From NCBI GenBank assembly GCA_965199495.1, contig CBDASK010000003.1:32001-96000 (forward strand): a DNA stretch of 64,000 nucleotides. The letters are read 5' to 3'. Positions 25,624-41,532 of the stretch are shown piece by piece. How positions within the stretch are numbered: the first letter of the stretch is position 1; every line of letters starts with the position of its first letter. Both the position numbers and the translations under genes were made by a program. Source of the DNA: Abditibacterium sp. GTDB lineage: Bacteria; Armatimonadota; Abditibacteriia; Abditibacteriales; Abditibacteriaceae. Under the pieces are notes generated by a model that saw nothing but the letters and a program-made list of their open reading frames with translations, had not been told where the DNA came from and made no database searches.

Positions 25624-26610
25624 ATGCACGTCAAATTCTGGGGAGTTCGCGGCTCCATTCCGCGCCCGGCCAACAGCGAAGAACTCGCGTCGCGGTTGGT
25701 CGAATCGCTTTATCGGCTGGGCCAACAATCCGATTATCTGGATTTGACCGACCGCAACGCGATTCGCGATTGGGTCGCGCAGTTGCCGCCAGCCATTAAC
25801 GCGTTCGCTGGCGGCAATACTCCGTGCGTCGAAGTGCGTTGCGGCGATGAACTTCTCATCCTCGATTTGGGTTCGGGCATCCGCGCGCTGGGCGAATCTT
25901 TGATGCAACGCGAATTCGCGCGGGGCCAAGGCCGCGCGCATCTGTTTTTATCGCATTTTCACCACGATCATATTCAGGGTTGGCCGTTTTTTCGCCCGGC
26001 TTATATCGCCGGTAATCACTTCGATCTTTATACCAGCCACGGCGACGCGCGCGCGATTTTAGACCAACAACAGCAAGCGCCATTTTTTCCACCCGATTCC
26101 ATCGAAGAGATGAAGGCGCGGGTGAACTATCATCAACTCGGCCCACAATCGCAAACGATTGGCAAAGGGGACATAAAAATTTCCACCCTCGCGCTGGATC
26201 ATCCTTCGATTGCGCACGCGTTCCGCATTGAGTTCGGTGGCAAAACGTTGGTTTACGCTTCGGACGGCGCGTTCCCGGCGCCCGACAAAGGGCCTCACGA
26301 TCCGGCTCAGCCCTACATCGAGTTTTTTCAAAACGCCGATCTGGTCATTTTCGATTCGCAATTTTCGCTGTCCGAAAGCCTAACCAAACGTTCGTGGGGC
26401 CACAGTTCGGCGATTATCGGCGTCGAACTGGCCGCGCACGCGGGCGCCCAACGATTGGCTTTGTTTCACCACGATCCCAACGCCGCCGATGGATTTTTGG
26501 AACATCTCATGCGCGTGGGCCGCGAACACGCCGCCAATCCTCCAATTCCCGCCGCATCTGGCCCGGTCGAAGTTTTTCTGGCGCGCGAAGGCGCCGAAAT
26601 CGAATTGTAA
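25624..26610 (+). CDS. MBL-fold metallo-hydrolase
   Basis: FWGVRGSIP, GGNTPC, DLGSG, SHFHHDHIQG, WGHSS, FHHDP. Confidence 0.92.
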   Translation: MHVKFWGVRGSIPRPANSEELASRLVESLYRLGQQSDYLDLTDRNAIRDWVAQLPPAINAFAGGNTPCVEVRCGDELLILDLGSGIRALGESLMQREFARGQGRAHLFLSHFHHDHIQGWPFFRPAYIAGNHFDLYTSHGDARAILDQQQQAPFFPPDSIEEMKARVNYHQLGPQSQTIGKGDIKISTLALDHPSIAHAFRIEFGGKTLVYASDGAFPAPDKGPHDPAQPYIEFFQNADLVIFDSQFSLSESLTKRSWGHSSAIIGVELAAHAGAQRLALFHHDPNAADGFLEHLMRVGREHAANPPIPAASGPVEVFLAREGAEIEL

Positions 26611-26638
26611 AACAACTGAAAGTGGCTCTTACTCGCCG

Positions 26639-27925
26639 TCATGCGCTGACCGACGGCGAAGTTTCTACCGACGTTTGTGGCGACCAATTCAGCTTTTGCT
26701 CGGTATATTCGCGCGGCGACATCAGCGGCAATTGCAAGCACTCGCTGTTCATCGGCAACACATCGCGCCACTGCGAAATCAGCTTTTTGTAGGCTAAACC
26801 GACGGGACGAATATTGCGCTCCAAATCATAAAGTCCCAGCGGATTGATGTGGCCGTTTGGCTCGCGCAGCGCCGTGTCCCAGTCCACCTGATCGGTCAGC
26901 GAATACCACGTAAAACCGAGCATCGGGATGCCGTCGTTGCGCACGAGCAACACGTTGGCCCACTCTTTCCAAAGCCATTGCACGGCCTCGTCGCCGCGCG
27001 CTTCTTGCCAGTGATTGGTTTCGGTGTGCATCACCGGCAGATGATAGCGCCGAAAATACTGCCGCGTGATTTCGCTATAGCCAAAAATCTCGCCCGCCGC
27101 GCGCGTGGCTCCATCGGACGAGACCAAATGTTCGTTGGTCACGTAATAATCGTTGCCCATCACGCACGATTTTTTGACTTTGTTTTCCAGAAAAAAATGA
27201 TACTGCTCGCGCGTCATGCCGTTGTCCAGCAAAAACTCATACATTTCCGAATCCACACGACGCCCGTAGTTCAAGTCGAGCGACAAAAAGCGGCGCGCGT
27301 TGAGAATTTCGGCGGGTTTAATCGCGGCGGGCGAGTCGGCGTGAAAGTATTCCGACGATTCGCTCTGAATAAAAATCGCGTCGGGGCGCACTTCCAAAAT
27401 AGCGCGCATCGCCAAAACGTTGGCTTTGACGATATTATTAAGCGCCGTCACAAAAGCGCGGTCGCTGGCGAGTTGTTCGTTCCACCAACCGTAGGCCGCC
27501 GAAAACGTCGCGCACACGAACATCTCGTTGACCGGCGTGTAAAGTTGCACCCAGGGAAAACGTTTGGCGAAATCGCGCGCGTAAGTCGCGAAGAGTTCGG
27601 GCAAATCGGGGTTTTGAAAATCGCCGACCCAATCGGGAATTCCGAAGTGACACAAATCAACAATCGGCACGATGTCGCGCTTTTTCAAATCGTTAAACGT
27701 TTCGTCAGCGAAATCCCAATTGTAGCCACCATCATGCAGCCACGTCGTGTGGATTGGCGGGCCGTAGCGTAGAAATTGGATTCCCAATTCTTGCACCAAA
27801 TCGAAATCGGTGCGCCAATGCGTATAATGGCCGCATTTTTCCATTTCGTCCACGCGCAATTTGCCATTACGTATCGTCGGATTGGAATTTTCGATGCCGG
27901 TCGCAAACATGAAATTTGAGTTCAT
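26639..27925 (-). CDS. Glycoside hydrolase family 1 (beta-glucosidase-like)
   Basis: FMFATGIENS, DLCHFG, YTPVNE, MHTETN, FTWYSLTDQVDW; start set at MNSNF. Confidence 0.88.
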   Translation of the reverse strand: MNSNFMFATGIENSNPTIRNGKLRVDEMEKCGHYTHWRTDFDLVQELGIQFLRYGPPIHTTWLHDGGYNWDFADETFNDLKKRDIVPIVDLCHFGIPDWVGDFQNPDLPELFATYARDFAKRFPWVQLYTPVNEMFVCATFSAAYGWWNEQLASDRAFVTALNNIVKANVLAMRAILEVRPDAIFIQSESSEYFHADSPAAIKPAEILNARRFLSLDLNYGRRVDSEMYEFLLDNGMTREQYHFFLENKVKKSCVMGNDYYVTNEHLVSSDGATRAAGEIFGYSEITRQYFRRYHLPVMHTETNHWQEARGDEAVQWLWKEWANVLLVRNDGIPMLGFTWYSLTDQVDWDTALREPNGHINPLGLYDLERNIRPVGLAYKKLISQWRDVLPMNSECLQLPLMSPREYTEQKLNWSPQTSVETSPSVSA

Positions 27926-28078
27926 TGGTAATTTGCGTGGAATGCAAGATGCGTGCGAAGTTTGCGCATTTTCTCTCAACCGCCATAAACCTATCCGACA
28001 TCTGAAATCCGCCATCCAATTATCCGACGCTGTTTTCACTCGTTTCAAAAAAAACTTTGAAAATTTGTCTAAAAGGGG

Positions 28079-28107
28079 TTGACACGCCCATAAAACTGCC
28101 ATAAAAT
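28079..28107 (+). promoter_or_regulatory. sigma70-type promoter upstream of the retron-like RNA and PARP
   Basis: TTGACA (28079-28084), 17 nt spacer, TAAAAT (28102-28107); predicted start ~28113-28115 coincides with the 5' end of the terminal inverted repeat. Confidence 0.8.
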
Positions 28108-28114
28108 TTCCGGT

Positions 28115-28405
28115 GAATTGGTGAGTTGCGCGTTTCGGCAATTTCGCTTGGTGCGAAGCTCCGGTGTTCCGCCGGAGACGATTCTTACTTCCCCAACGCT
28201 GCGCTTGCAGCACGGGACGCCGCTGTGTTTTCACCCGGTCGCGGGTGCCCCGGCCCCCTGAGATTTAATTATTCGCACACGAGAGCTTACGTTCCGTGCT
28301 GTGCGACCAATTAAATCTCAGGGGGCCGGGGCACCCGCGACCGGGTTACAGTGACCGGCGCCCGTCAAAAGAGAGTTCATGCGAAAGGCGCAACTCGCCC
28401 AATTC
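28115..28405 (+). ncRNA. Putative retron msr-msd non-coding RNA
   Basis: Terminal imperfect inverted repeat GAATTGGTGAGTTGCGCGTTTCGGCA (28115-28140) / TGCGAAAGGCGCAACTCGCCCAATTC (28380-28405); three short hairpins (28143-28157, 28159-28177, 28198-28211); long hairpin 28212-28365 with a 38-bp perfect core; retron RT downstream on the same strand. Confidence 0.7.
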
Positions 28406-28501
28406 TTCATCTTTCGATGGACATTTACAACTGCATAAACTGACAGCTTTCAACCGCGAGATATTTTTCCTCAACCCACTTTGCCGCGCCTGGAGCCACT
28501 C

Positions 28502-29815
28502 ATGTCAAACATCATCAAAAGTGCCCGACTCATTTTCGTGTCGGTGAGCAACAACAACAACAAGTTTTATTACATCGACCTTTTCGATAACGATCAAGTC
28601 CAAATTCGTTACGGTCGCTACATCGAAGAAAACGGCGAACTCAAAGTTCAATCCGACACCACAACGCCCGGCGGCGAAAGTTTATTCCAGCGCAAACTGC
28701 GCGAAAAAACGGGCAAAGGTTACAAGCCGCAACCCGTTTTAGAAGACAATTCGTCTTCGCCGAGCGCGTCCCAGAAAAACGCCGGATTGGAAGAGATCGC
28801 GTTATCGCAAATTCGCACCAAGTCCGACGAAGTGCGCGCGCTGATTTCCTATCTTTGCAACATCAATATCCACAACATCGTGGAAAACTCGGCGATTAAA
28901 TACAACAAAGACACCGGTTTATTCTCGACGCCCTCCGGTCTCATCACCGTTGACGGCATTCGCGATGGGCGCGAACTGTTGTCGCAAATCAAAACCAAGA
29001 TTGACGCCGGAAAGTGGGACGCCCATTACATCCAGTTGCTCGATCAATATCTGACGATTGTGCCGCGCGACTTCGGGCGCAAACGGCCCGACCCGCAAGA
29101 ACTCTTCCCCGACGACGCCGAAATTCAGAAACAAGCGGGCATTTTGGATTCGCTCGAAGCCAGTCTGACTTCCTACGCCGAGAAGAAAGCCAAAGGCGAA
29201 TACGACATCAAAGAAGACGACGCGCCGCCGCCCCCGCCGCCGCAACTCTTTGATACTGCCGTCGAGTTGTTAACCGACCAAGCCGAATTCAATCGCATCA
29301 AAGAACATTTCGAGAAGTCGGCCAAAACCGAACACCAATCCATTAAGCATCTGACGTTGAAGCGCGTTTACACCGTCGAAATCGCCAAAATGAAGCGCGA
29401 ATACGACGAGCGCGGTGCGAGCAAAGGCAACGTGCATCGTTTGTGGCACGGCACTTCGGCGGCCAATGTTTTGTCAATTTTCAAGAGCGGTTTCATGCTG
29501 ACGCCGCCATCGAGCGCGCATATCGCGGGCAAAGCGTTTGGCAACGGCTTGTATTTCGCGCCCGCCTCGACCAAAAGTTTGCAGTACGCCGGTGGTTTTT
29601 GGGGCGGTAAGCAGGGCAAAAAGACGTATATGTTTTTGAACGACATCGCCGTCGGCAAAGCGTTCGAGCCGAAGACGACGACAAGCCAAAATCCGCCTGC
29701 GGGCTACGATTCGTATTGGGCGCGCGCGGGCAAAGCCGGTTGGCTAATTAACGATGAAGTCATCGTGTTCGATGCGGCTCAGGTCAATCCGGTTTATCTG
29801 CTGGAATTTGAGTAG
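28502..29815 (+). CDS. Poly(ADP-ribose) polymerase-like protein: WGR + regulatory (helical) + catalytic domains
   Basis: WGR-like NNNKFYYIDL..RYGR..KTGKGY; YLTIVPRDFG; PARP signature LWHGT..FGNGLYFA..STKSLQY; NDEVIVF; H316/Y351/E419 triad numbered from ATG 28502. Confidence 0.92.
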   Translation: MSNIIKSARLIFVSVSNNNNKFYYIDLFDNDQVQIRYGRYIEENGELKVQSDTTTPGGESLFQRKLREKTGKGYKPQPVLEDNSSSPSASQKNAGLEEIALSQIRTKSDEVRALISYLCNINIHNIVENSAIKYNKDTGLFSTPSGLITVDGIRDGRELLSQIKTKIDAGKWDAHYIQLLDQYLTIVPRDFGRKRPDPQELFPDDAEIQKQAGILDSLEASLTSYAEKKAKGEYDIKEDDAPPPPPPQLFDTAVELLTDQAEFNRIKEHFEKSAKTEHQSIKHLTLKRVYTVEIAKMKREYDERGASKGNVHRLWHGTSAANVLSIFKSGFMLTPPSSAHIAGKAFGNGLYFAPASTKSLQYAGGFWGGKQGKKTYMFLNDIAVGKAFEPKTTTSQNPPAGYDSYWARAGKAGWLINDEVIVFDAAQVNPVYLLEFE

Positions 29816-29891
29816 TAATTTTGAAATAGGACGCAATGACGAACGTGGGGCTAAAACCGCGCGCGTTTCGGATGGTCAGAAAAAATCACTC

Positions 29892-30446
29892 ATGAAAACC
29901 ACAATTTCCCTTGTCTGCGCCCTCGTTACTTGCATCGGCACCGGCGCTTTTGCGCAAAACACGACCAAACCCGCGCCCGCCGCGCAAATTTTGGCCTCGG
30001 CGCAAAAACGAGCGGCCAAAGAAAAAAAAGCCGTTTTCGTCGTTTTTCATGCTTCGTGGTGCGGTTGGTGTCACCGGCTCGAAGATTCGATGAACAAACC
30101 GCCGTTCAAAAAATTGTTCGCCGATAATTATGTCATCGTTTCGCTCGATGTCAGGGAACACGGCGACAAGAAAGTTTTGGAAAACCCCGGCGCCGACAAA
30201 GTAATGGCCGATTTGGGCGGCACCGATGCTGGCTTGCCGTTTTATGCGTTCACCGACGCGCGCGGCACGCGTCTGGCGAGCAGTCTGGCGCTGCCTGCGT
30301 CGGGTGGAAAAATGGCGAATATCGGCTATCCAACGACGCCCGCAGAAATCGCGGCTTTCGACAGTCTGTTGCGCAAAACCGCGCCGAAAATGAACGCCAA
30401 AGCGCGCCAATCTTATCTCGATTATTTGAAATCCCCCGCAAAGTAG
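29892..30446 (+). CDS. Exported thioredoxin-family protein
   Basis: Signal peptide, FHASWCGWC, GLPF cis-Pro loop. Confidence 0.85.
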   Translation: MKTTISLVCALVTCIGTGAFAQNTTKPAPAAQILASAQKRAAKEKKAVFVVFHASWCGWCHRLEDSMNKPPFKKLFADNYVIVSLDVREHGDKKVLENPGADKVMADLGGTDAGLPFYAFTDARGTRLASSLALPASGGKMANIGYPTTPAEIAAFDSLLRKTAPKMNAKARQSYLDYLKSPAK

Positions 30447-30481
30447 CCCCGCTCGCCCCTATTCGCGTTGGCCGTTTGGAG

Positions 30482-30638
30482 ACTTAGAAGCTATCCCAAC
30501 AGGGAAAGAAACTTGAAAGAGGCGGGGCTGACGCACCTTTCCAATCTGGCGTAAGTCCGAGGAAATTCCGCCGATTGGAAGGGTGCGTCAGCCCCGCCTC
30601 TTTCAAGTTTCTTTCCCTGTTGGGATAAGCACTTAGAA
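30482..30638. mobile_element. MITE-like palindromic element flanked by 8-bp direct repeats
   Basis: 55-bp arms 30492-30546 / 30573-30627 (one mismatch); ACTTAGAA at 30482-30489 and 30631-30638; core GGGGCTGACGC also occurs at 48032-48323. Confidence 0.65.
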
Positions 30639-30866
30639 TGAATTCGATAATTTCTCATCAAGCGTTTCAATCGAGCGCACTTTCTTTGATGCGATCAGAA
30701 AATTGGCGGGAATTTGTCCGCGACAATTAGCCATTGACCGCCGAGTTGTCGCCAGTCCAAACGACGTTGTGCCACGTAACCGGGCGCCCGACTGGTCAGG
30801 GCCAAAGGCCGCGTAGAGTTTGTTGGGCGGCGCAGCGTTAGCGTTCTATTTCTCAATTATACCCAC

Positions 30867-33800
30867 ATGAATCCACAAATTCCCATCGAAGCGCGCCAGA
30901 CCGTTTTAGATTTCATTACGGCAGGCACGTCGTTTACCGCCTACGAAGTCACGCTCGAAGTGCGGCGCCGCCTCGGAACTTCGATTGACGTGCCGCACGG
31001 CGTCGTCAATACCATCGTGCAAAATATGTTTGCGCGCGGCGATCTTATGGGCTACGACCGGCGACCCGACCAGACCGTGCAATCCGCCACGCCGCCGTTT
31101 CGTTATTATCAGCGCGGCGGCGCCGTGGCTGCTCCGTTCGTGACGCCGACTGCTCCCGCGATTTCGCGTTCGGGTTTGCCGCCCGCGCTGCGGTTTTCCG
31201 TGCCATTGAGCGCGATGATGCGCAACTTGGGCGTCGCCGCGCGCGATTTTCAGCGCGCGCACGGCAAGGCCAGCGAACCTTTTGCGGTCTGGTTGCCCAC
31301 GCTCAAAGAGCCGACGTTTCGCTTGCGTTGCTATGGCGCGGGCTGGGACGAAAGCGAGGTCGAACGGCGTTTTGCGCTCAATTTAAATAATCCCGGCGCC
31401 GCAGAGATGATCTGGCTTTCGCCGCTCGCTTATGCCGACGAATTTCGACTTTATTCCAACTTGAGCGGCACGCAAACCCAGTTCTTGATCAAAATGGACG
31501 CGGCGTTGCAAACGACCATAGCCAAAGAAGCCGAGCGGAAAACGGGCGAGCCGGACGGATTGGAAATCGAAGTCGCGATTCGCAATCGCGACCTTGATTC
31601 CGGCGAACGCGCGCAGAAAATTTATCGTTATCTGAGCGTGCCGCCGCGCATCTATCGTAATGGAGTGGCTTTGACGATTGTGCCGTCGAAAGTGATTTCG
31701 CAGGGCGACGGTTGGAAACTGACCGATAACAAAGAACTACTGGCAATCGTTGATGAGGTCGCCTATTCGCTGTTGGGACTGGAAGCGGTTGCGGGATTGG
31801 GGGTCAAGTTATATCTGGAAAACGTGGATGTCGAGCCGTCGCTGGAGAAGTTGGAGCAAACCGACCGCACGCGCGACGAGCGCAAGCGCGTCATCGAAAA
31901 TTTCAAACGCGAAATCGCCGCGCCGATTAATCAACAATTTGCGGGCGCGGCGAATTTGTGGGAAGCCAAAATTTTGTGGCGCGAGATTTTCGGCGCCGCC
32001 AGCCCCAACGCGATGCAGAAAGTGTTGGGCAACGCCGTTTCGTGGCGCGGCATCGCCGTCGAAAGCGCCGATTTCCAATGGCACAACGCGCCCGCAGACG
32101 TAAAAATCCGAGGCTATCGTCCGTCTTCAAAGCCGACAAAAACAGTGGATTCGTGGGTTGCTTATGTGCTTCCGGCCCATTCCGAAACTCTGGTTTTCAT
32201 CAACGATCTGGGCTGGGACAAAAGCGCGACCTCGCGCATTGCCGAACTTCAACGTACGTCGCCGTTCACCACCGCGTTCGTTCTGAATTTCGCGGACGAC
32301 GCCGCGCGCGCCACGTTTTTCCGCGAACAAAATTTCGAGACCGTTCCGACGCGTTTGATTTCCGAACTGCCCAAACCGGCGCGCGCCATCGGCACGCCGC
32401 ACGTCAGCAACCGCACAGCGTTCGATGCGCAATTGCATCAAATCCAGGCGCCATCGGGCGGTGTGGCGGCGTCGTTCGCTGCGGGCGATGACGGTTCGGA
32501 TGCCGACTTTGAGAATCTGAAAATTTGGGCGCGCGCCGCGCCGCTCGACGCGAAAAATTGGCCCGATTTCAAGCGATTGTATAAAGCCATCGAAGCGCGG
32601 TTGTGGCCGCCGATGGGCCGTTTTCGTTGGGACGCAACCGAAGCCGATTTCGCCGCGACGCCGATTCCGAGTGAGCGAGATTTGGAATTGTTGGGCGTTT
32701 TGATGGGCCGCTTGGACGAACACAACGCGCAACGCGGCGCGGGCCAACCCGTCGCGCCGCAACCGACGATTGCGCAATGGGCTTTGAGTGCCGTTAGCAA
32801 TTTAGTCGGTCGCCCCAATGCAGCCACGGCGAGCGGGCCAAGCGCCAACACGCTTGCTTATATGAAGCGGCGCGCGACGAAATTATTGACATTTTTGCGC
32901 GGTAACCAAGATTTGTCCGAGCGACGCCGCCATGCGCTCGCGCCTTTGGTTTGTGGCCTATTGCAACGCGATAAATGTCTGGATATTTCGGAGACTTTGG
33001 TGGGGCGTTTGAAGTTGGGCGAAACCGAGGTTTTGGCCGCTCATCCCGCAGCGATTGCGCGCGTGTGGGCGAATATAACGGTGCCATTGACCATCGCGCG
33101 TTGGTCTTACGATTGGCTGGAAGAACACCAACAAATTATCGAGGTTTCGCCAGTGCAGTTGCGACGCTTTGTCGAGTTGCCCGATGTGAATTGGACGCTG
33201 AAACTCGCGCCCGCCGCGTTGCAAAAAGATCAGATTTGGCCGCGCGATTTTGGTTTGCGAGATTTTTCGCGCGTCTTGCAGGGCAACGCGCAAAATATGA
33301 CGAACGGCGTTTGGGTCAACACGCAATTTTTGCAGCGACGCGACGAAATCGTGAATTTATTCGCGCGTTTCCCGCAACTCGAACTTGACAAACGTTGGTT
33401 GCGCGATTCGATTTCGCAGGTCAGTGACGAAATCACGCTCGATTGGCTGGCGCCGTGGCTGAACGAGTGGGCGCGCGACGGCGAGTTTTCGCTGATCGAA
33501 AAAATGTCGCCCGACCTGCAAAATCGCTTCAACACGGCAATTGTCGCGGTTTTTTCGCAGGGATTATCGCTGGAAAAATGGCGAGAACTCACGAACGCGC
33601 CGGAATTGTTGCCATTGCTGGCGCCCGCGCTCCAACAAATGTCGATTTCGAGTAAAATCGCCGATTATATTTGGTCGTTGCCCGCCGACAAACGCGATCC
33701 GATTTTGAGAGCATTGGAAGAGAATCCGGCGTTGTTACCGATCATCGAAGACCACGCGCGCCGTTTGGATTGGGCGTTCATCGCGCCACTTTCAGCAGTG

Positions 33801-34736
33801 CAATGGGAATGTTTCGCGCGGACAGTGTCCGCGACTTTTCCCGACGGAATTAGCGCCGACGATTGGGCGCAAATCGCCGAATTACCGTTTGAAGCGGGCC
33901 ACAAATTTTTGCCATTGGGCACCGGATTCTGGCAGTTTGTTTTGCCGCTTGAAAGCGAAAATCGCGCGCGGTGGATCGCGCGCGTCGGAGCAGAGCGCGC
34001 GAGTCGCGAGTTCGCCAGCCAAAGCGCGGCGATTTTCGAGGAATTGCTCGATTCGGATGAGACGGGTTTGGACGAATTGGGCGACGCGTGGCTCGATGCA
34101 CAGTTGTCGCAAATCGCGTTTGATAGCGAACTCATCATTAAATTGGCGCAAAGCAACGTTTCGGATTGGCAAGCGCGCGCGTTGTCGCATTTGCGTTCCG
34201 CCGAACTGCGCTTGCCGGTGGCTCTTCGTCTGATGGAAAGCGAACTGCCGATTTTGGAGCGTGTGGCCGCGCCGTTTTTCTCGGACGAAAACAAGAACTG
34301 GAGCGAGCGTGTTCTGGCGCTCGCCGATTCGCCGAAAATAGCGGCGCGCGCCCTCGCATTGCAATTGTTGGAAGAATTTCCCCGGCGTTGGACGCCCGAT
34401 TTGTTGCGCCAGTTGGCGCAGCACGATGACGCGGGCATTCAAGCGTTTGTCGCGGCGCAATTGAAAAATGCGCCCGCTAAAGTCGTCGAATCCAAGGCGA
34501 TTGAAACGTTCGATAGCGCGATAATTAACGCGCGCGGGCGAGGGCGACGGGCCAAAGAAAGCGTGAAAGCGCGCGCGGGTAAGTTTGACCGCGAAACGTT
34601 GCTCGAAGCCGCGCGCAACGGCGCGCCGCGCGACCGCGAATGGGCACTGCGACAATTGGTTCTGGCGTCATTGGCGGGCGAGAACGTCGAAGGATTAGAT
34701 GTCGCGGGCGCGTTTGCGAAGGCGGATTCGCGATAG
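30867..34736 (+). CDS. Large retron-associated protein: small N-terminal domain, degenerate rIIA-like GHKL domain, ARM/HEAT-like helical C-terminal half
   Basis: 1289 aa ORF; PFAVWLPTLKEPTFRLRCYGAG..SPLAYADEF..TGEPDGLEIEV resembles phage rIIA-type HATPase; NTLAYMKRRA and repeated L-x-x-L-x-[DE]-S helical units; upstream of SWIM and RT genes. Domain calls by eye. Confidence 0.72.
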   Translation: MNPQIPIEARQTVLDFITAGTSFTAYEVTLEVRRRLGTSIDVPHGVVNTIVQNMFARGDLMGYDRRPDQTVQSATPPFRYYQRGGAVAAPFVTPTAPAISRSGLPPALRFSVPLSAMMRNLGVAARDFQRAHGKASEPFAVWLPTLKEPTFRLRCYGAGWDESEVERRFALNLNNPGAAEMIWLSPLAYADEFRLYSNLSGTQTQFLIKMDAALQTTIAKEAERKTGEPDGLEIEVAIRNRDLDSGERAQKIYRYLSVPPRIYRNGVALTIVPSKVISQGDGWKLTDNKELLAIVDEVAYSLLGLEAVAGLGVKLYLENVDVEPSLEKLEQTDRTRDERKRVIENFKREIAAPINQQFAGAANLWEAKILWREIFGAASPNAMQKVLGNAVSWRGIAVESADFQWHNAPADVKIRGYRPSSKPTKTVDSWVAYVLPAHSETLVFINDLGWDKSATSRIAELQRTSPFTTAFVLNFADDAARATFFREQNFETVPTRLISELPKPARAIGTPHVSNRTAFDAQLHQIQAPSGGVAASFAAGDDGSDADFENLKIWARAAPLDAKNWPDFKRLYKAIEARLWPPMGRFRWDATEADFAATPIPSERDLELLGVLMGRLDEHNAQRGAGQPVAPQPTIAQWALSAVSNLVGRPNAATASGPSANTLAYMKRRATKLLTFLRGNQDLSERRRHALAPLVCGLLQRDKCLDISETLVGRLKLGETEVLAAHPAAIARVWANITVPLTIARWSYDWLEEHQQIIEVSPVQLRRFVELPDVNWTLKLAPAALQKDQIWPRDFGLRDFSRVLQGNAQNMTNGVWVNTQFLQRRDEIVNLFARFPQLELDKRWLRDSISQVSDEITLDWLAPWLNEWARDGEFSLIEKMSPDLQNRFNTAIVAVFSQGLSLEKWRELTNAPELLPLLAPALQQMSISSKIADYIWSLPADKRDPILRALEENPALLPIIEDHARRLDWAFIAPLSAVQWECFARTVSATFPDGISADDWAQIAELPFEAGHKFLPLGTGFWQFVLPLESENRARWIARVGAERASREFASQSAAIFEELLDSDETGLDELGDAWLDAQLSQIAFDSELIIKLAQSNVSDWQARALSHLRSAELRLPVALRLMESELPILERVAAPFFSDENKNWSERVLALADSPKIAARALALQLLEEFPRRWTPDLLRQLAQHDDAGIQAFVAAQLKNAPAKVVESKAIETFDSAIINARGRGRRAKESVKARAGKFDRETLLEAARNGAPRDREWALRQLVLASLAGENVEGLDVAGAFAKADSR

Positions 34737-34973
34737 GTTTCGGAACTGGCATTGAACCATGAAGCGCCTCTGACTCACACCCCCTCTGACTTCGTCATCT
34801 CCCCCTCCGAGAGGGGAAGAATGCCTCATTAGGGTGAAGAGCTTACCTGGTAAATACGAAGCGGCGAAAGTTAATTCGGCATTCTTCCCCTCTCGGAGGG
34901 GGAGATGACGAAGTCAGAGGGGGTGTGAGTCAGAGGCGCTTCATGGTTCAATGCCAGTTCCGAAACCTATCGC
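34730..34973. repeat. Palindromic element with 96-bp perfect arms
   Basis: 34730-34825 is the reverse complement of 34878-34973; REP-like core CCCCCTCTGACTTCGTCATCTCCCCCTCC. Confidence 0.9.
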
Positions 34974-34987
34974 CAGGAAAATTTATC

Positions 34988-36703
34988 ATGGAAATCACAC
35001 AATCTTACGCCACGCCTTCGACCGCGCAGCCACGCGGCGACGGTCTGGGTTTTTCGCTTTCGACCGAGGCCGCGCGGCCCGGCGTGCATCTCGAAGCTCT
35101 GGTCAAAAAATCGCGTTCCTACGGGCGCGTGATGCTCGCTTTACACCGCGTCGTTGCGGGCGACGCGCGTTTTCAAGAAGCCGATCATTCGGCCTATCAA
35201 GCGTGGGTGCGCGGCCAATATCTGCTCGAATTGGCGCAAGACCAGAAGCAATTGCAACAGAAATTGCCCGCGTTACAGCAGGAATTGGACGAGATTAAAA
35301 CGCAATTGCAACCGCTCGACACGCGCTCAAACGAACTTTATCTGGAACTGCAAAAGTTGGGGCGCGAGGGCAGCAAATCGTTTTACGAGGCTCAGCGCAA
35401 CTACTGGCAATATCTCTATCGCGCCGATAAAGCGTTATGGTGGGTTTTGGATCCGGTGGTTTCGGTTCATCCCGACGCCACGCTTTTCGAGGTGTTTTCG
35501 CGCGACGAATCGAGTTACGGTTGCGTGCGCGTGCCGACCAAAAATCTCGATGTTGTGGGCGACGTGGCTTATGGCACGACGAACGTGGATTATTCGCAAG
35601 CGTTGGCCAACGAAATGGCGCGCGTGCGCGATTACAGACGCGCATGGTTGGGCGTTGGACAAACGGGCATCAGCGTGGCGACGACGGCGGGCGCGCGCGT
35701 TGAAAAGAAGATTGATTTGCCGCCTTCTTGGGTGCGCGGCTTTTTGCAAGTCCAAAGCGCGAGCGCGTTGGCGACGATAAATTTGTCATTGTCGGCCACC
35801 GTCGTCGCCGAAATTTTGCGAGTGTTGAATGCACGCCGCGAAGACAAAGGCCCGCGCTCGCTGAAATTCGATTTAAAACCGGGGCAGTTGCCGACAATCG
35901 AAATCGAACCGTGGGGCGAAATCGTGCGCGAAACGCAGTTTAAATATGCGGGAAAAACCGCGCAAACCGTGCGGATTTGGGGACGGCGGCGCTTATCGGT
36001 TTTGAGCGAAATGTTGCCGCACGCGCGCGAAGTCGAGGTGCGCTTGCTGGGCGACGGCTTGCCGTCGTTCTGGGCGTTGGAACTCGAAGGCCATCGTTTC
36101 GAGCTGGGTTTGTCGGGCTGGACGACCAACGATTGGAGCGCCGCCGCGCGTTTCGATGCGCTCGCTTCGAGCAGCCACGTCGGCGACGAACTGTTGAAGA
36201 CGGCGGCGCGCGAGTTAGAAAAGGCGCTGATTTTGACGCCGGTTCAACTCGCCGAAATCACCGATTCCAATCGCGCACAGGCGACGAGTGCATTGCAAAA
36301 GCTATGCAGTCAGGGCCGCGCGATGTGGGATTCGGTGATTAAATCGTATCGCTGGCGGCAACTGTTGCCGTTCGCGGCGCCCGAAACGCCGCTCGATACC
36401 AAAGCGAAATCGGCGGTGCGTTGGGTTGAAGGCGGCAAAGTGAAAGTCGCTAAAGTTGACGATAAAGAAATCGAAAAAGACGATTTCTTGAAGCGTTACA
36501 ACGCGCCCGATGTTCAGTTTTGGGCGGCGGAAGTGAACTCGGAAGGCGGCCAGTTTAATCCGTTGTGGGCCAGCGACGCCGATGGTCGCGTGAAATTTTG
36601 GCAATGCACCTGCGGCGAGTTTCGCCGCGACAAAGGGCGCGGCGGGCCGTGCGCGCATTTGCTGGCGGGCTTGGGACAGGTCGAAGCGGAGGGAAAACGA
36701 TGA
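34988..36703 (+). CDS. SWIM zinc-finger protein (retron type XIII-associated family)
   Basis: LDPVVSVHPD..FEVFSRDESSYG, LPPSWVRGFLQVQ, WGRRRL, LGLSGWTTNDW, YRWR; C-terminal CTC-x12-CAH; AGGA RBS before ATG 34988. Confidence 0.85.
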   Translation: MEITQSYATPSTAQPRGDGLGFSLSTEAARPGVHLEALVKKSRSYGRVMLALHRVVAGDARFQEADHSAYQAWVRGQYLLELAQDQKQLQQKLPALQQELDEIKTQLQPLDTRSNELYLELQKLGREGSKSFYEAQRNYWQYLYRADKALWWVLDPVVSVHPDATLFEVFSRDESSYGCVRVPTKNLDVVGDVAYGTTNVDYSQALANEMARVRDYRRAWLGVGQTGISVATTAGARVEKKIDLPPSWVRGFLQVQSASALATINLSLSATVVAEILRVLNARREDKGPRSLKFDLKPGQLPTIEIEPWGEIVRETQFKYAGKTAQTVRIWGRRRLSVLSEMLPHAREVEVRLLGDGLPSFWALELEGHRFELGLSGWTTNDWSAAARFDALASSSHVGDELLKTAARELEKALILTPVQLAEITDSNRAQATSALQKLCSQGRAMWDSVIKSYRWRQLLPFAAPETPLDTKAKSAVRWVEGGKVKVAKVDDKEIEKDDFLKRYNAPDVQFWAAEVNSEGGQFNPLWASDADGRVKFWQCTCGEFRRDKGRGGPCAHLLAGLGQVEAEGKR

Positions 36704-38133
36704 GCGATTGGCGCAAACAAATCAAAGAACTGGGCAAACGCGAGTTTCAGCGGCGCGAAATGGAACGGTTGGGTTTCTGGCCGCCGCCCGCGCAGGGTTC
36801 CGACCAAGCGCGCGATGTGCAAAGCCAATTGAGCGCGCTCAACGTCGAAATGCGCGCCGTGGCTGATCGTAGTCGGCCCCTGCGATTGCGCGAAAATCAA
36901 ATCGAAAAAGAATTGTCCGAAGCGGGCAATCTCGAAGCGCAACTCGCCGAAATTCGGCGGCGCCGCATCGAACGCGTTAAAGCCGCGCGATTGGAAAAAC
37001 GCGCGCGCCGCGAACGCGAAACCGTCGAAAAACGCGCGCGCGACCAGCAATGGCGCGCCGAGAATCTGCCGTTTTTAGGACGCGGCGTCTCCAAACGCCT
37101 GAACTTTGCCGAGCCGTCCGACGCCACGAAACTGGGCGAAATCGGATTGCCGGTTTTGAACAATCCCGCCGACGTGGCTGCTCTGTTGGAAATCACGATT
37201 CCGCAGTTGGCGTGGCTCTGCTATCATCGCGAGGCGGCGCCGATTGACCATTATTCGCGCTTCACGATTCCAAAACGCAACGGCGGATTGCGCGCGATTT
37301 CGGCGCCGCGACCGTATTTAAAAGCGGCGCAAACGCGCATTTTGCGCGCGATTTTGGAACTCGTGCCGCTTCACGAGGCGGCGATGGCGTTTCGGCCCGC
37401 GCGCAATATCGGCGATAATGCGATGATTCATTCGCACGCGCAAAGCGGCGGGCCAGCCGTTATTTTGCGCGTGGATTTGAAAGATTTCTTTCCGTCTATC
37501 ACTTTCAAACGCATCGCCGGAGTTTTCGCGCAATTGGGCTATAACGGCGGCGTTGCGACATTGCTCGCGCTGATTTGCACCGAACCGCCGCGCGTCGCGG
37601 CGACGCTCGACGGACAGACCAGCCACGTCGCGTTGGGCGCGCGCTTTGTGCCGCAGGGCGCGCCGACTTCGCCCGCCTTGACCAATATTTTGTGCCGCCG
37701 ATTAGATTCGCGATTGAGCGGTATGGCGCGCGCCTACAATTTTAATTACACGCGCTACGCCGACGATTTGGTGTTTTCTTCGACCAAAGGCGCCGATGCG
37801 ATTCATCTAAAAAATGGCGTGATGCAAATTTTGGAAGACGAAAATCTTGCCGTCAATCCCGATAAAATTGATTTCGCGCGGCGCGGCCAACGCCAGAGCG
37901 TGACAGGTTTAGTCGTCAACGGTGAGCGTGGCCCGCGCCCGTCGCGGCGCGATTTGCGGCGGTTTCGCGCCGTCATGCACGATATTGGGTGCAATGGCGC
38001 CGATGCGGTTTCCGAGAAAATGGGTCAGAGCGCGCTGTGTTGGGCGCGCGGTTATCTGGCGTTCGTGCAGGGGTGCGCGCCCGAAATCGCGAGCGGTTTG
38101 CGCGAAAAATACGCGAGTGTTTTGACGGTATAA
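36700..38133 (+). CDS. Retron-type reverse transcriptase, Mx162/Mx65-like, with basic N-terminal extension
   Basis: IPKRNGGLRAISAP, region X NAMIH (37417-37431), DLKDFFPSI, PQGAPTSPALTN, YTRYADDLVFS (YADD 37756-37767), region Y VTGLVVN (37900); ATGA overlap with SWIM gene; GGAGG RBS. Confidence 0.95.
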   Translation: MSDWRKQIKELGKREFQRREMERLGFWPPPAQGSDQARDVQSQLSALNVEMRAVADRSRPLRLRENQIEKELSEAGNLEAQLAEIRRRRIERVKAARLEKRARRERETVEKRARDQQWRAENLPFLGRGVSKRLNFAEPSDATKLGEIGLPVLNNPADVAALLEITIPQLAWLCYHREAAPIDHYSRFTIPKRNGGLRAISAPRPYLKAAQTRILRAILELVPLHEAAMAFRPARNIGDNAMIHSHAQSGGPAVILRVDLKDFFPSITFKRIAGVFAQLGYNGGVATLLALICTEPPRVAATLDGQTSHVALGARFVPQGAPTSPALTNILCRRLDSRLSGMARAYNFNYTRYADDLVFSSTKGADAIHLKNGVMQILEDENLAVNPDKIDFARRGQRQSVTGLVVNGERGPRPSRRDLRRFRAVMHDIGCNGADAVSEKMGQSALCWARGYLAFVQGCAPEIASGLREKYASVLTV

Positions 38134-38141
38134 TCTTTTCT

Positions 38142-39356
38142 ATGAAATTCACGGTTTTCATCGCCAGCATTTTGGCGTTCGCCGCTCCCATTGCTCACGC
38201 GCAGGATGCGTCTAACGTCAACGGCTATAGCGCGTTAGTTGAGGCCGGAAAACTCATCATGCCCGATGCCAGAGACGAAATGCGCGACCTCGTGCCGCCC
38301 GCCGAAAATCTGGCGCGCCAAAGGGCATCGGTTGAGCGCAATGCAATCGCGTTGGTTTTAGCGCGCGAGGCGTTGGCGCAACCAATTACGATCCCTGCGC
38401 CTGAAAGTCCGCAGAATATCAGCGCAGAAAGTCTCATAGATTTTCAAAAGTTAGCGCGCCAATTTCTCGCGGAATCAGACGTGCGCTTGGCCAATAGTGA
38501 CGCGGCGGGCGCGCTCGATTCGCGTTTGACGATGCTGCAACTCGGTCGTGCCACCGCGCATGATGCGCCTTACACTCACACGCTGGTTGGCCTGAGCATC
38601 GAAGGCATGGCGCGCAAAAACATCGAGTTCGTCGCGGCCCGGTTGGATGCGCCGCAAATTCGCGCGGCGCTGATTCGATTGGATTCGATCAACGCACAAA
38701 GCACAAATTTAGTCGCCGTTCTAAGAGTCGAGAAACCGTCAACGCTACGAGCCGTCGGCGCGGCGTTATCCGCCGTCACGCCGCAAGACTTGAACAAATC
38801 AAAGGCCATACTCGCGACACCCGAAGGCCGCCGTGAAGCCGGGCTTTCGGACGAAGAGGCCAAACTTTCCGTCGAGTTGTTAGAAATGAACGCGGAATTG
38901 GTCAAAGCGAAAATTGGCGAGGCCTTCGATTTTTATATCGCGCGCGCAGACTTACCCTATCAACAATCGCTTTCCAATTTCCCCAACCCCAACCCAGCGA
39001 CTGACGTGTTTTCAGACAAATTTAAAGATCCGCTAATACGCTTTGTTTTTGAGCGCAATCGCGTTAACAATGATTGGCTACGCGCCGCGCTCGAACTGCG
39101 CGCCATCCAACTGGAAACCGGCCAATATCCAGCGAGTTACGACGCCGGAACCGATCCGTTTTCTTTCCCCACTGCGTCCTACATTTACCGGCGTGAAGCC
39201 GACAAATATCTGCTTTATAGCGTCGGGCCTGACGGCAAAGACGAGGGCGGCGCCGAAATTCAGACGCTGCAAACCAACTCGCAAACCGGAGTCAATAGCG
39301 TCAATAGCGTTTTGAACACCAACTCGCTCGGTGACATCGTTGCCCCAATATTTTAG
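38142..39356 (+). CDS. Exported hypothetical protein with C-terminal LYSVGPDGxD motif
   Basis: Signal peptide ending AHA-Q; DPFS..YIYR..LYSVGPDGKDEGG. Confidence 0.75.
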   Translation: MKFTVFIASILAFAAPIAHAQDASNVNGYSALVEAGKLIMPDARDEMRDLVPPAENLARQRASVERNAIALVLAREALAQPITIPAPESPQNISAESLIDFQKLARQFLAESDVRLANSDAAGALDSRLTMLQLGRATAHDAPYTHTLVGLSIEGMARKNIEFVAARLDAPQIRAALIRLDSINAQSTNLVAVLRVEKPSTLRAVGAALSAVTPQDLNKSKAILATPEGRREAGLSDEEAKLSVELLEMNAELVKAKIGEAFDFYIARADLPYQQSLSNFPNPNPATDVFSDKFKDPLIRFVFERNRVNNDWLRAALELRAIQLETGQYPASYDAGTDPFSFPTASYIYRREADKYLLYSVGPDGKDEGGAEIQTLQTNSQTGVNSVNSVLNTNSLGDIVAPIF

Positions 39357-39363
39357 CACGATA

Positions 39364-41421
39364 TTATCCGCCGACGTGAACGCGCGGACGCCGCGCCGGA
39401 TCAGGTTCGGCTTCGCGCAAAACTTCGTGGGTGACGGGCGGCACGTCGCCCTGACCGAAGACGATGTAGTTGAAGATGTAAACCAGCGGATTGCCTTCCG
39501 TCCACGCGAAATAAACGTGGGGAATGACGCCGGTTTCGTCGCGAATGCGCAGCATCAAAGCGGCGATGGCGTTGGGCACCGTCGTGGCGTAAACGCGCAA
39601 AATTTGAAAGCCGTGACGTTCTTCGCCGCGCACGTTGATGGCGCCCGAAAAGTTGGAGGCGTCCACAACCGTCACTTCGAGAAAGATAATCGGGTCGCCT
39701 TCGGGAATGTGATTGTTCTCACGCTTTTCCAATTCTTTCTCGCGATATTCGGCTTCGTCGCGCGCGCCGGGATGGTTGGCGACGATGCGGATGTGGCCAC
39801 GCGCAGCCTGCTCGATAATTTCCTGCGCTTTAGTATCAATGTTGAACTCTTCGGCGCGCAGTTCGGTGGTGCGATAAACGCGCGATAACAGCGACAACGC
39901 TACGATGCCCGCGATGAAAATCAAGGCGATTTTCAGGCCGCCCGGATCGTCGCGGATGGTGACGGCGGTGGTATAAACGAAAATCGCGCACACGATGCCA
40001 AAACCAATCATCATTTTGGTCTGGCCCGCGCGTTTGGCGCTCATCGTCACGGCGACGGTGGCTGATGTCATCAACGCCAAAACGCCCGTCGCGTAGGCTC
40101 CGGCCTGCGCCTCGACATCGGCGTGAAAGGCGATGGTCACCAGAAAACAGATGCCGGTAAATATCAGCGTGAGCGGGCGCGTGGCGCGCATCCATTCGGG
40201 CGCCATGCCATAGCGCGGCAGATAGCGCGGCATGATGTTCAAAAGCCCGGCCATCGCCGAGGCGCCCGCGAACCACAAAATGCAGATCGTCGAGATGTCG
40301 TAGGCGGTACCGAAACCGTCGCCGAAAATATCGTGCGCCATGAACGCGAGCGCGCGCCCATACGCTTTGCCCGCTGGTTGCGCGGGCACGGCTTCCTGCG
40401 ACTGAATTTCGGGAGTGGTTTCGGTGCGCTCTTGAAATTCGATGGCGGGTTGCGCGAGTTGAGGCGCCTCAAACTCGGCGGGCGGCACGTAAAGCGTGGT
40501 GACGATCGCCGACAAAATCAGCATCACCGACATGATGCAGGCCGCCAACGTCAGTAGTTTGCGCGCGTTGCGAATGCGGCCCGTCGGCTTGTTTTCGTTG
40601 TCGTCGGGATCGCCCTGAATCAATGGCATCACCACGACGCCGGTTTCAAAGCCCGAAAGCCCCAACGCCAAACGCGGAAAAACCAAAAGCGAGGCGCCAA
40701 ACATCGCCAGATAGCCGGAATGTTCGGTAAAAAGTCGCGCTTTCCAACTGGAAATCAGCGCCGGATGATGGACGATCTGCAAGAAGCCACCGCCAATCAC
40801 CACCAAGTTCATCAGGATGAAAACGATGACCAAGGCGACCGCAATGCCGATGGCTTCGCCGAAACCTTTCAAGAAAACCGCGCCCAGCAAACTAATAAGA
40901 AACAGCGTAATCAACACGTTTTCGCCGTGCAGAAACGCGGGCGCGAACGGATTCTCGACGACGTGCGCCGCCGCGTCCGCCGCCGACAAAGTGATGGTAA
41001 TAATGAAACCGGTCGCCGCGAAACCGATGAGGGCCAGCACGAACATTTTGCCCTGCCACCATTTCAGCACGGTTTCGAGCATCGAAATCGAGCCGTCGCC
41101 GTGCGGCGATTCGTAGGCCACGCGCCGATACATCGGGAGCGCGCCGAACAGCGTCAAAATCACCAGAATCAGCGTGGCAAACGGCGCGAGAGCGCCCGCC
41201 GCCAGCGCCGCAATGCCCGGCTGATAACCCAATGTAGAAAAATAATCCACGCCCGTCAGGCACATCACTTTCCACCACGCGTGCGTATGTTCGACTTTGG
41301 ATTCGGAAATGCCGGGGCCTTCGTGCGTGCCGTCAACACGATGAGAGCGAGGGCCATCGGGCGAATCGTGTTGCGCGCTGGGCGAATCGGCTTGCAGTAA
41401 CCACTTACTAAATGCGGACAT
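39364..41421 (-). CDS. APC superfamily (amino acid/cation) transporter, paralog 1
   Basis: [35 protein letters not shown]; ~12 TM helices. Confidence 0.88.
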
Positions 41422-41532
41422 GAGCCAAAAGGATAAGGGATAAAGGCCAGAGCATAAAGGATTTTTCTAAGAAATCGCAAATTTATTTCAATTTCTCGAT
41501 AAGATTCCAATGGTCAGACTTTATCCGTTACC

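What the first reader, a model, noticed from the sequence alone, without database searches (positions are those of the whole stretch)
28115..28405. Retron-like ncRNA lies ~8.3 kb upstream of its RT, in front of the PARP
Seen: the RT start overlaps the SWIM stop codon, leaving no room for an adjacent msr-msd. This intergenic region instead has the full layout: a ~25-nt imperfect terminal inverted repeat (a1/a2-like) beginning at the predicted transcription start, three small 5' hairpins (msr-like), and a ~150-nt hairpin at 28212-28365 (msd-like, 38-bp perfect core with imperfect pairing inside and outside it). An unpaired G at 28137/28138 near the inner end of the terminal stem is a candidate 2'-OH branching G (inference). 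Pipelines that look only next to the RT would miss this RNA.
Basis: partly seen in the sequence, partly recalled or inferred. Interest (0 to 1): 0.85.

Follow-up and report, generated by a model that had tools for sequence, protein, structure and literature searches.

The report
Retron RNA gene far from its enzyme
This is a genuine retron template RNA gene that sits at the front of a five-gene operon, 8.3 kb from the reverse transcriptase that should copy it, in a retron that also carries a PARP-like enzyme.

Summary
Window 28115-28405 folds into terminal a1/a2 arms, small 5' hairpins and a ~150-nt hairpin (z = -16), just downstream of an 11/12 sigma-70 promoter match.

PADLOC calls the locus a type XIII retron (SWIM_XIII 2e-157, RT_XIII 2e-139). 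The SWIM stop and RT start overlap as ATGA.

The element is unique in its genome. The two other long hairpins in the operon belong to genome-wide palindromic repeat families.

Eighteen homologous elements share the fold, with 41 of 54 pairs showing compensatory changes. The long stem has 465 Watson-Crick pairs and no G-U; the RNA-only helices have 37 G-U.

A covariance model built only from operon-head copies finds the SWIM-RT-gap elements of 14 other type XIII loci, some myxobacterial.

The operon-head position marks a whole RT subclade. A second such retron lies in the same genome.

Verdict: real msr-msd of a known retron type in an unusual layout. WGR-PARP genes recur in type XIII operons of three phyla. 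msDNA itself is not shown.

The parts
28079..28107 (+). Sigma-70-type promoter (-35 TTGACA 28079-28084, 17-nt spacer, -10 TAAAAT 28102-28107)
   Evidence: 11 of 12 consensus matches. Both hexamers are kept in position in relatives L004-L007.
28115..28405 (+). Retron type XIII msr-msd ncRNA gene
   Evidence: MFE z = -16. Conserved with covariation in 18 sequences. The covariance model links it to RT-adjacent type XIII ncRNAs. It is the only hit in window 26000-42000 (67.2 bits, next best 12.5).
28115..28137 (+). a1 arm of the terminal stem
   Evidence: Pairs with 28382-28405. All 9 modelled a1/a2 pairs show compensatory changes.
28138..28138 (+). Predicted branching (priming) G
   Evidence: Invariant G of a GCA motif in 18 of 18 sequences. 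It is the first unpaired base after the a1/a2 stem. Its function is inferred.
28159..28177 (+). Conserved msr stem-loop
   Evidence: 100% of cells paired in 18 sequences, and 3 of 7 pairs show compensatory change. The motif is shared with myxobacterial SWIM-RT-gap elements.
28212..28365 (+). msd stem-loop: conserved base helix plus hypervariable long stem 28233-28346
   Evidence: Long stem: 25 of 27 pairs show compensatory change; 465 Watson-Crick, 0 G-U and 17 unpaired cells. The complement folds as DNA at -82.7 kcal/mol, z = -13.9.
28382..28405 (+). a2 arm of the terminal stem
28502..29815 (+). WGR - PARP regulatory - PARP catalytic protein (437 aa)
   Evidence: Pfam WGR 8.7e-10, PARP_reg 2.3e-07, PARP 5.7e-24. 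Matches PARP1/PARP2 chains at about 1e-19. H316, Y351 and E419 are invariant in 5 retron-linked homologues.
29754..30446 (+). Thioredoxin-like ORF (230 aa; start uncertain)
   Evidence: Pfam Thioredoxin_7 6.6e-13. No tblastn match in L003-L006.
30492..30627 (.). Palindromic repeat element (REP/MITE-like), not part of the retron
   Evidence: 55-nt arms, 98% complementary. Over 100 BLAST pieces across the chromosome.
30867..34736 (+). Large accessory protein (1289 aa), divergent type XIII HEAT/ARM-class protein
   Evidence: PADLOC WGR_XIII 3.5e-08 over profile positions 716-910. Syntenic with the large gene in L003-L007, L010 and L011.
34730..34973 (.). Second palindromic repeat element (REP/MITE-like), not part of the retron
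   Evidence: About 244-nt palindrome. Dozens of copies elsewhere in the genome.
34925..36703 (+). SWIM_XIII protein (true start probably the ATG near 34985, after the repeat)
   Evidence: PADLOC SWIM_XIII 2.2e-157, Pfam SWIM 3.1e-04. The sequence around the start was printed.
36700..38133 (+). Retron reverse transcriptase, type XIII (477 aa)
   Evidence: PADLOC RT_XIII 2e-139, Pfam RVT_1 1.9e-25. NAxxH, YADD and VTG motifs are present. The start overlaps the SWIM stop.

Best explanation
Window 28115-28405 is the msr-msd gene of a type XIII retron. It is transcribed from its own sigma-70 promoter as the 5' leader of the operon WGR-PARP / thioredoxin-like / large HEAT-ARM-class protein / SWIM protein / RT.

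Inferred mechanism:
- The RNA folds so that a1 (28115-28137) pairs with a2 (28382-28405).
- The RT is made from the far end of the operon and acts in trans. It recognises the conserved msr hairpin (28159-28177).
- It primes from the 2'-OH of G28138 and copies the msd region leftwards from about 28381 to about 28190-28200.
- The product would be a branched single-stranded DNA of about 180-190 nt whose main feature is a long DNA hairpin.

Shown: the structure, its conservation and covariation, its uniqueness in the genome, its homology to RT-adjacent type XIII ncRNAs, and an intact RT with retron motifs.

Inferred: transcription start, priming G, msDNA ends, and msDNA production itself.
For: 1. 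Fold far beyond chance (z = -16.06, 0 of 100 shuffles), starting right after an 11/12 promoter match.

2. Type XIII retron proteins lie on the same strand (SWIM_XIII 2.2e-157, RT_XIII 2e-139). The RT carries NAxxH, YADD and VTG. SWIM and RT overlap, so there is no adjacent site.

3. The 86-position model R1 finds one hit in window 26000-42000 with filters off (67.2 bits; next best 12.5).

4. The element is conserved at the operon head.
- It is found in L004-L007, L010 and L011.
- Its DNA matches 16 of 26 other genomes of the window's family. nhmmer confirmed the better matches.

5. Covariation on 18 sequences.
- 54 pairs, 41 with changes on both sides.
- 95.3% of cells paired against 67.0% in shuffles (0 of 500 reach it) and 34-45% when partners are slid.

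6. G-U pairs: 37 in the RNA-only helices 1-3, 4 in the msd base helix, and 0 among 482 cells of the long msd stem. This is expected if that stem must also pair as DNA. The complement folds as DNA with z = -13.9.

7. R1 was built only from operon-head copies. At E < 0.01 it hits 15 loci outside its training set, all on the RT strand. Fourteen lie in the SWIM-RT gap, including Archangium, Hyalangium and Myxococcaceae loci; one (L018) is at an operon head. Type XIII is the family of Mx162, Mx65, Sa163 and Ne144 (Table 1 passage read, PMC7736814).

8. The hairpin is not a repeat family: only self matches in the genome.

9. In genome G134 the operon is gone. What remains is the ncRNA without its long stem, fused to a PARP fragment. 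RNA gene and operon have decayed together.
Against: There is no direct evidence of msDNA or of transcription; no RNA run was on hand.

The ncRNA is not contiguous with the RT, which the classical definition requires.

Two palindromic repeat elements sit between operon genes (30492-30627, 34730-34973). They could interrupt transcription, so RT expression from the ncRNA promoter is not assured.

The genome has a second type XIII RT, 47% identical, so which RT uses this RNA is not proven.

The homology model covers only the 5' module. It gave no hit at E <= 1 in 47 of 87 related loci.

The covariation alignment mixes two paralogous systems, and its consensus structure was derived from the same alignment. 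Related sequences can beat shuffles without structure.

The absence of G-U in the long stem would also arise if the palindrome were renewed by DNA-level processes.
Confidence: 0.85

Rival explanations
1. A structured 5' leader that regulates the PARP operon (attenuator, stability element or protein-binding site) and is never reverse transcribed.
For: It lies between the promoter and the first gene, with no terminator match between them. Nothing shows reverse transcription.
Against: It is homologous to elements that sit between SWIM and RT in 14 other type XIII loci, where they cannot be PARP leaders. In other genera the same RNA precedes a HEAT/ARM gene, not a PARP. It has the full a1/a2 + msr + msd layout with an invariant G. 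The long stem has no G-U pairs. No other ncRNA candidate exists for an intact retron RT.
Confidence: 0.06
2. A genuine msr-msd of a retron that no longer works here. The operon is interrupted by two repeat insertions and a foreign thioredoxin-like gene, so the RNA is a relic.
For: Two genome-wide palindromic elements lie inside the operon. The thioredoxin-like ORF is absent from L003-L006. A related genome, G134, shows that this locus can decay.
Against: All four conserved ORFs are full length against relatives. RT motifs and the PARP H/Y/E positions are intact. The a1/a2 stem, the invariant G and a 38-bp perfect stem are preserved.
Confidence: 0.06
3. A mobile or repetitive palindrome (REP/MITE, IS end) or a transcription terminator that landed upstream of the PARP gene by chance.
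For: The genome is rich in long palindromic repeats, two of them in this very operon. Rfam gives only weak miRNA-precursor-like hits typical of any long hairpin.
Against: Only self matches in the 4.8-Mb genome. The position is conserved while the stem sequence changes by paired substitutions. No T-run follows the hairpin.
Confidence: 0.02

Closest known systems
Type XIII retrons (RT clade 10: Mx162/Retron-Mxa1, Mx65, Sa163, Ne144; Mestre et al. 2020, PMC7736814)
   Same: RT_XIII and SWIM_XIII proteins. A large HEAT/ARM-class accessory gene upstream of SWIM. An ncRNA with a1/a2, a short msr hairpin with the same loop motif, a G-C-A motif after a1, and a long msd hairpin of about the Mx162 size class.
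   Different: In the 14 loci with confident model hits outside the window's clade, the ncRNA lies in a 300-1300-bp SWIM-RT gap. Here SWIM and RT overlap, and the ncRNA heads the operon 8.3 kb away. A separate WGR-PARP gene comes first. Table 1 of that paper, as read, lists only SWIM and HEAT/ARM clusters for type XIII.
Operon-head type XIII loci found here: Armatimonadota L010/L011, Thermoflavimicrobium L018, SAR86 L088, and the window genome's second retron L119
   Same: Order ncRNA - large accessory gene - SWIM - RT, with the RNA 4.6-5.8 kb from the RT. All but L018 fall in one RT clade with the window (support 100).
   Different: They lack the PARP gene. L119 and four genomes of the window's family (G046, G245, G003, G237) carry two tandem ncRNA copies. 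A published 'TypeXIIIA_firmi' covariance model (Table 1 passage read, PMC13712802) may already rest on such Bacillota copies; I could not check.
Retrons whose ncRNA precedes the effector gene rather than the RT (for example Retron-Sen2/St85; recalled, not checked here)
   Same: The ncRNA sits at the 5' end of the operon, and the RT works on it although another gene lies between.
   Different: There the RNA and RT are separated by one gene of about 1 kb. Here four genes and two repeat insertions (8.3 kb) separate them.
Bacterial PARP1-like proteins (WGR + regulatory + catalytic; Perina et al. 2014, PMC4245714, passage read)
   Same: Same domain order. H, Y and E positions are kept. The paper reports that the Herpetosiphon enzyme needs DNA for activation.
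   Different: That paper, in the passages read, gives no genomic context. Here the gene is the first gene of a retron operon.

Membership tests
Retron msr-msd ncRNA | Terminal inverted repeats a1/a2 that pair | tested here: met
   28115-28137 pairs with 28382-28405. All 9 modelled pairs show compensatory change in 18 sequences.
Retron msr-msd ncRNA | Conserved unpaired G at the inner end of a1 that primes through its 2'-OH | tested here: inconclusive
   G28138 is invariant in 18 of 18 sequences and unpaired. Branching cannot be tested by computation.
Retron msr-msd ncRNA | One to three short msr stem-loops followed by a long, variable msd stem-loop | tested here: met
   The feature definition was read in PMC7736814.
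Retron msr-msd ncRNA | Contiguous with the RT gene (classical definition) | tested here: not met
   8295 bp and four ORFs lie between them. The same strand and probably the same operon.
Retron msr-msd ncRNA | Production of branched multicopy single-stranded DNA | not testable with these tools
   Only a prediction: about 185 nt, and the DNA fold has z = -13.9.
Type XIII retron system | RT of clade 10 with the retron motifs NAxxH and VTG and catalytic YADD | tested here: met
   RT_XIII 2e-139. Motifs seen.
Type XIII retron system | SWIM zinc-finger protein encoded next to the RT | tested here: met
   SWIM_XIII 2.2e-157. Found upstream of the RT in 78 of the 87 related loci; the other 9 have too little sequence upstream of the RT.
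Type XIII retron system | WGR-like/HEAT-ARM accessory protein | tested here: inconclusive
   The WGR_XIII profile is split. Positions 3-107 hit the PARP protein (7.6e-05) and positions 716-910 hit the 1289-aa protein (3.5e-08). Pfam finds nothing in the 1289-aa protein.
Type XIII retron system | ncRNA homologous to type XIII ncRNAs | tested here: met
   Model R1, built from operon-head copies, hits SWIM-RT-gap elements in 14 loci at E < 0.01. The published type XIII models were not available.
REP/MITE palindromic repeats | Many copies dispersed in the genome | tested here: not met
   Only self hits for 28100-28420. The feature is met for 30492-30627 and 34730-34973.
Intrinsic terminator | GC-rich hairpin followed by a T-run | tested here: not met
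   No terminator-like site at or after the hairpin.
Rfam families | Score at or above the gathering threshold | tested here: not met
   Best hit is a plant miRNA precursor family, 56.9 bits against a gathering score of 128. A myxobacterial SWIM-RT-gap locus gives the same kind of weak hits.

The most novel reading that the evidence does not exclude
The WGR-PARP is a retron effector or sensor. Its WGR domain reads the msDNA hairpin or its ends, as PARP1-3 read DNA breaks. Loss or alteration of msDNA during phage infection would switch on ADP-ribosylation or NAD+ consumption. The macrodomain proteins encoded beside the PARP in other type XIII operons would act as the eraser. This would give bacterial PARP1-like enzymes a function and a natural DNA ligand. 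It would also link DNA-dependent PARP activation to a retron defence system.
Probability: 0.35. Interest if true: 0.85.

Novelty: new variant of a known kind. Interest (0 to 1): 0.55.

Why it matters
Retrons are usually defined, and often searched for, as an ncRNA next to its RT. Here a whole subclade of type XIII retrons keeps the RNA gene at the head of the operon, 4.6-8.6 kb from the RT. It spans Armatimonadota including Abditibacteriaceae and a SAR86 genome, with a Bacillota case just outside the clade. For such loci, annotation or retron engineering that looks only at the RT's upstream flank would pair the RT with nothing.

The locus also gives a concrete, testable msDNA prediction: the priming G, the template span, and a length of about 185 nt.

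PARP1-like genes, sometimes with a macrodomain gene, recur inside type XIII operons in three phyla. This suggests a function for bacterial PARPs that I did not find in print.

Tried and rejected
I used an 86-position model of the 5' module instead.

Rfam at E <= 1: only sub-threshold miRNA-precursor hits on the hairpin, both in the window and in a myxobacterial SWIM-RT-gap locus. Rfam therefore neither supports nor rejects the reading.

Public sequencing runs: no RNA holder listed. Only contigs were on offer.

Supplementary files of PMC7736814 could not be read and figures are not held. I could not see where that paper draws the type XIII ncRNA, or whether its Firmicutes model comes from operon-head copies.

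Earlier notes of this scan: nothing for this place.

Readings considered and rejected:
- REP/MITE.
- Terminator.
- Alternative template sites 30640-30866 (z = -0.43), 30492-30627 and 34730-34973 (repeat families).
- A second ncRNA near the RT.

One mistaken estimate: the SWIM-RT gaps computed from tblastn ends were too large for L007 and L010. ORF maps show overlap or abutment there.

Full report
**The observation**

Window 28115-28405 has the described layout.
- The terminal arms are 28120-28137 / 28382-28399 (18 nt, 89% complementary). In the minimum-energy fold they extend to 28115-28140 / 28380-28405.
- Three small hairpins follow: 28142-28158, 28159-28177 and 28198-28211.
- The long hairpin spans 28212-28365. 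Its arms are 28233-28279 / 28300-28346 (47 nt, 96% complementary), with 38 consecutive pairs.
- The 321-nt stretch folds at -193.9 kcal/mol against -113.4 +/- 5.0 for shuffles (z = -16.06, 0 of 100 as good).
- An 11-of-12 sigma-70 match (TTGACA-17-TAAAAT, 28079-28107) puts the likely transcription start where a1 begins. Both hexamers keep their position in relatives.

**The locus**

The genes downstream, all on the + strand, are listed below.
- A WGR / PARP-regulatory / PARP-catalytic protein at 28502-29815.
- A thioredoxin-like ORF at 29754-30446.
- A 1289-aa protein at 30867-34736, whose C-terminus matches PADLOC WGR_XIII.
- A SWIM_XIII protein at 34925-36703 (E = 2.2e-157).
- An RT_XIII at 36700-38133 (E = 2e-139).

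The SWIM stop and RT start overlap as ATGA, so no ncRNA fits next to the RT. The RT carries NAxxH, YADD and VTG.

Type XIII is the family of Mx162, Mx65, Sa163 and Ne144 (Table 1 passage of PMC7736814).

**Not a repeat**

The hairpin and the whole element match only themselves in the 4.8-Mb genome.

The two other long palindromes in the operon behave differently. These are 30492-30627 (55-nt arms) and 34730-34973. Both belong to families with dozens of copies across the chromosome, so they are REP/MITE-like insertions.

The remaining alternative site, 30640-30866, folds no better than chance (z = -0.43).

**Conservation and covariation**

Seven close RT relatives were found. Four of the seven (L004-L007) carry the element at the head of the operon, 5.9-7.5 kb before the RT. 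L003 ends inside the PARP gene. The other two (L008, L009) have identical RT rows and show no element in the sequence held.

The element's DNA matches 16 of 26 other genomes of the window's family, and 23 of 401 genomes of the phylum sample including the window's own. nhmmer and individual folds confirmed the better matches. Weak matches outside the family were not checked.

I aligned 18 copies.
- RNAalifold gives 54 pairs, 41 of them with changes on both sides.
- 95.3% of cells are paired, against 67.0% after shuffling (0 of 500 shuffles reach it) and 34-45% when partners are slid. The covariation score is 0.770 against 0.203.
- Caveats: the sequences are related, two paralogous systems are mixed, and the structure was derived from this same alignment.

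G-U pairs are distributed unevenly.

| Helices | Watson-Crick | G-U | Unpaired |
|---|---|---|---|
| 1-3 (a1/a2 and msr hairpin) | 230 | 37 | 18 |
| 4 (msd base helix) | 184 | 4 | 10 |
| 5 (long msd stem) | 465 | 0 | 17 |

This is what one expects if the long stem must also pair as DNA. The complement of 28195-28381 folds as DNA at -82.7 kcal/mol (z = -13.9).

The stem sequence turns over fast. Against the closest relative (PARP 91.5% identical), the ncRNA flanks are 171/206 identical but the core only 60/106.

G28138 is invariant in all 18 sequences. It is the first unpaired base after the a1/a2 stem; G28137 pairs with C28382. It is the predicted priming G.

**Homology to RT-adjacent type XIII ncRNAs**

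I built an 86-position model of the 5' module from 20 operon-head copies only. I then searched the window plus 87 related loci, 1.42 Mb in all.

- All 47 hits at E <= 1 lie on the RT strand.
- At E < 0.01, 15 loci outside the training set are hit.
- Fourteen of those hits lie in the SWIM-RT gap: L061, L046, L022, L025, L033, L059, L039, L057, L040, L027 (three copies), L085, L060, L089 and L034. They include Archangium, Hyalangium and Myxococcaceae.
- One hit, Thermoflavimicrobium L018, lies 4.65 kb upstream of the RT, before the accessory gene. It folds as a complete a1/a2 + msr + msd element (z = -8.1).
- 47 of the 87 loci gave no hit at E <= 1, so the model is not sensitive across the family.
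- Folds of SWIM-RT gaps in myxobacterial loci show the same msr loop motif and a G-C-A motif after a1.
- With filters off, the window has one hit (67.2 bits); the next best scores 12.5.

**The operon-head layout is a clade feature**

I built a FastTree of 89 RTs. It has local support values only and is rooted at the midpoint.

A clade of 14 rows has support 100. It holds the window's RT, the genome's second RT, L003-L012, L020 and L088.
- In 9 of those 14 the operon head is visible, and in all 9 the ncRNA sits there. These are the window, L119, L004-L007, L010, L011 and L088.
- The contigs of the other 5 (L003, L008/L009, L012, L020) end too early.
- L018 branches next to this split.

The second retron in the same genome is C3:1618092-1619510 on the - strand, with an RT 47% identical. 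Its order is two tandem ncRNA copies - 1181-aa protein - SWIM - RT, without a PARP.

**What the literature says**

- PMC7736814 defines retrons as contiguous msr-msd-RT cassettes, in the passages read.
- A 2026 survey scans +/-10 kb with published models, including 'TypeXIIIA_firmi' (passages).
- Operon-head copies in Bacillota may therefore already underlie a published model. I could not see the figures or supplements.

**PARP**

The PARP protein aligns with PARP1/PARP2 over WGR, regulatory and catalytic parts (about 1e-19).

WGR-PARP genes lie upstream of the RT in 7 of the 87 related loci, and also in the window itself. The seven are L003-L006, L037, L070 and L077. In L037 (Tepidisphaerales) and L077 (Sandaracinaceae) a macrodomain gene follows the PARP, and the ncRNA candidate lies in the SWIM-RT gap (weak model hits, E = 0.33 and 0.038).

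H316, Y351 and E419 are invariant in the five PARPs aligned. Their reading as the H-Y-E triad rests for H and Y, and on recall for E.

Three full-text searches found no paper that links retrons with PARP. Perina et al. report that a bacterial PARP needs DNA for activity (passage).

**A natural deletion**

In genome G134 the flanking genes (the 307-aa ORF on one side, the 185-aa and 685-aa ORFs on the other) are kept. Between them remain only the ncRNA, lacking its long stem, and PARP residues 53-133. This sets the island's limits at about 27.8-39.3 kb in the window. It also shows RNA gene and operon being lost together.

**Verdict**

The element is a real type XIII msr-msd in an operon-head layout (confidence 0.85). 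It is a new variant of a known kind. msDNA production, the priming G and the role of the PARP remain to be tested.

Noticed in passing
window 30492-30627 and 34730-34973: Two long palindromes inside the retron operon (55-nt arms; about 244 nt overall). Each belongs to a family with dozens of copies across the chromosome, so they look like REP/MITE-type elements. The second overlaps the longest SWIM ORF's start, so the true start is probably the ATG near 34985.
   Followed up: partly
G000:C3:1618092-1626150 (locus L119 8096-16150, - strand): A second type XIII retron in the same genome: two tandem ncRNA copies (52.9 and 52.8 bits), a 1181-aa accessory gene, SWIM and RT. The RT is 47% identical to the window's, and there is no PARP. 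A copy of the 34730-34973 repeat family lies just downstream of this RT.
   Followed up: partly
L037 59-2268; L077 1578-3880; L070 2802-4259; window 28502-29815: WGR-PARP_reg-PARP genes head type XIII retron operons in three phyla. In L037 and L077 a macrodomain gene follows directly, giving a writer/eraser pair. Three literature searches found no report of this.
   Followed up: partly
L092 (G134:C7:19623-22746): A decayed allele of this locus. The ncRNA lacks its long msd stem and is fused to a PARP fragment (residues 53-133). The rest of the operon is gone, while both flanking genes are kept.
   Followed up: partly
L104, L111, L106, L103 (two copies each); L027 2260-3017 (three copies); L060 and L034 (two copies each): Tandem duplicated msr-msd genes recur in type XIII retrons, both at operon heads and in SWIM-RT gaps. 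Copies share the conserved modules but differ in their a1/a2 arms and long stems.
   Followed up: partly
L075 7758-7905: A possible third layout: a weak model hit (E = 0.039) plus a 26-pair hairpin between the accessory gene and SWIM, that is accessory - ncRNA - SWIM - RT.
   Followed up: no
window 29754-30446: A thioredoxin-like ORF lies between the PARP and the large accessory gene. It has no counterpart in the four closest PARP-linked loci (L003-L006), so it looks like a recent insertion into the operon.
   Followed up: no
window 28233-28346 against L091 (G125): The long msd stem is replaced almost entirely between very close relatives. The core is 60/106 identical while the flanks are 171/206 and the PARP protein is 91.5% identical. 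Perfect pairing is kept throughout, so the stem turns over fast and in a paired way.
   Followed up: partly
window 37989-39356: A 455-aa ORF overlaps the RT's 3' end and has no Pfam or PADLOC match. It is absent from L004-L006 and from the decayed G134 allele. It lies inside the island limits, and its function is unknown.
   Followed up: no
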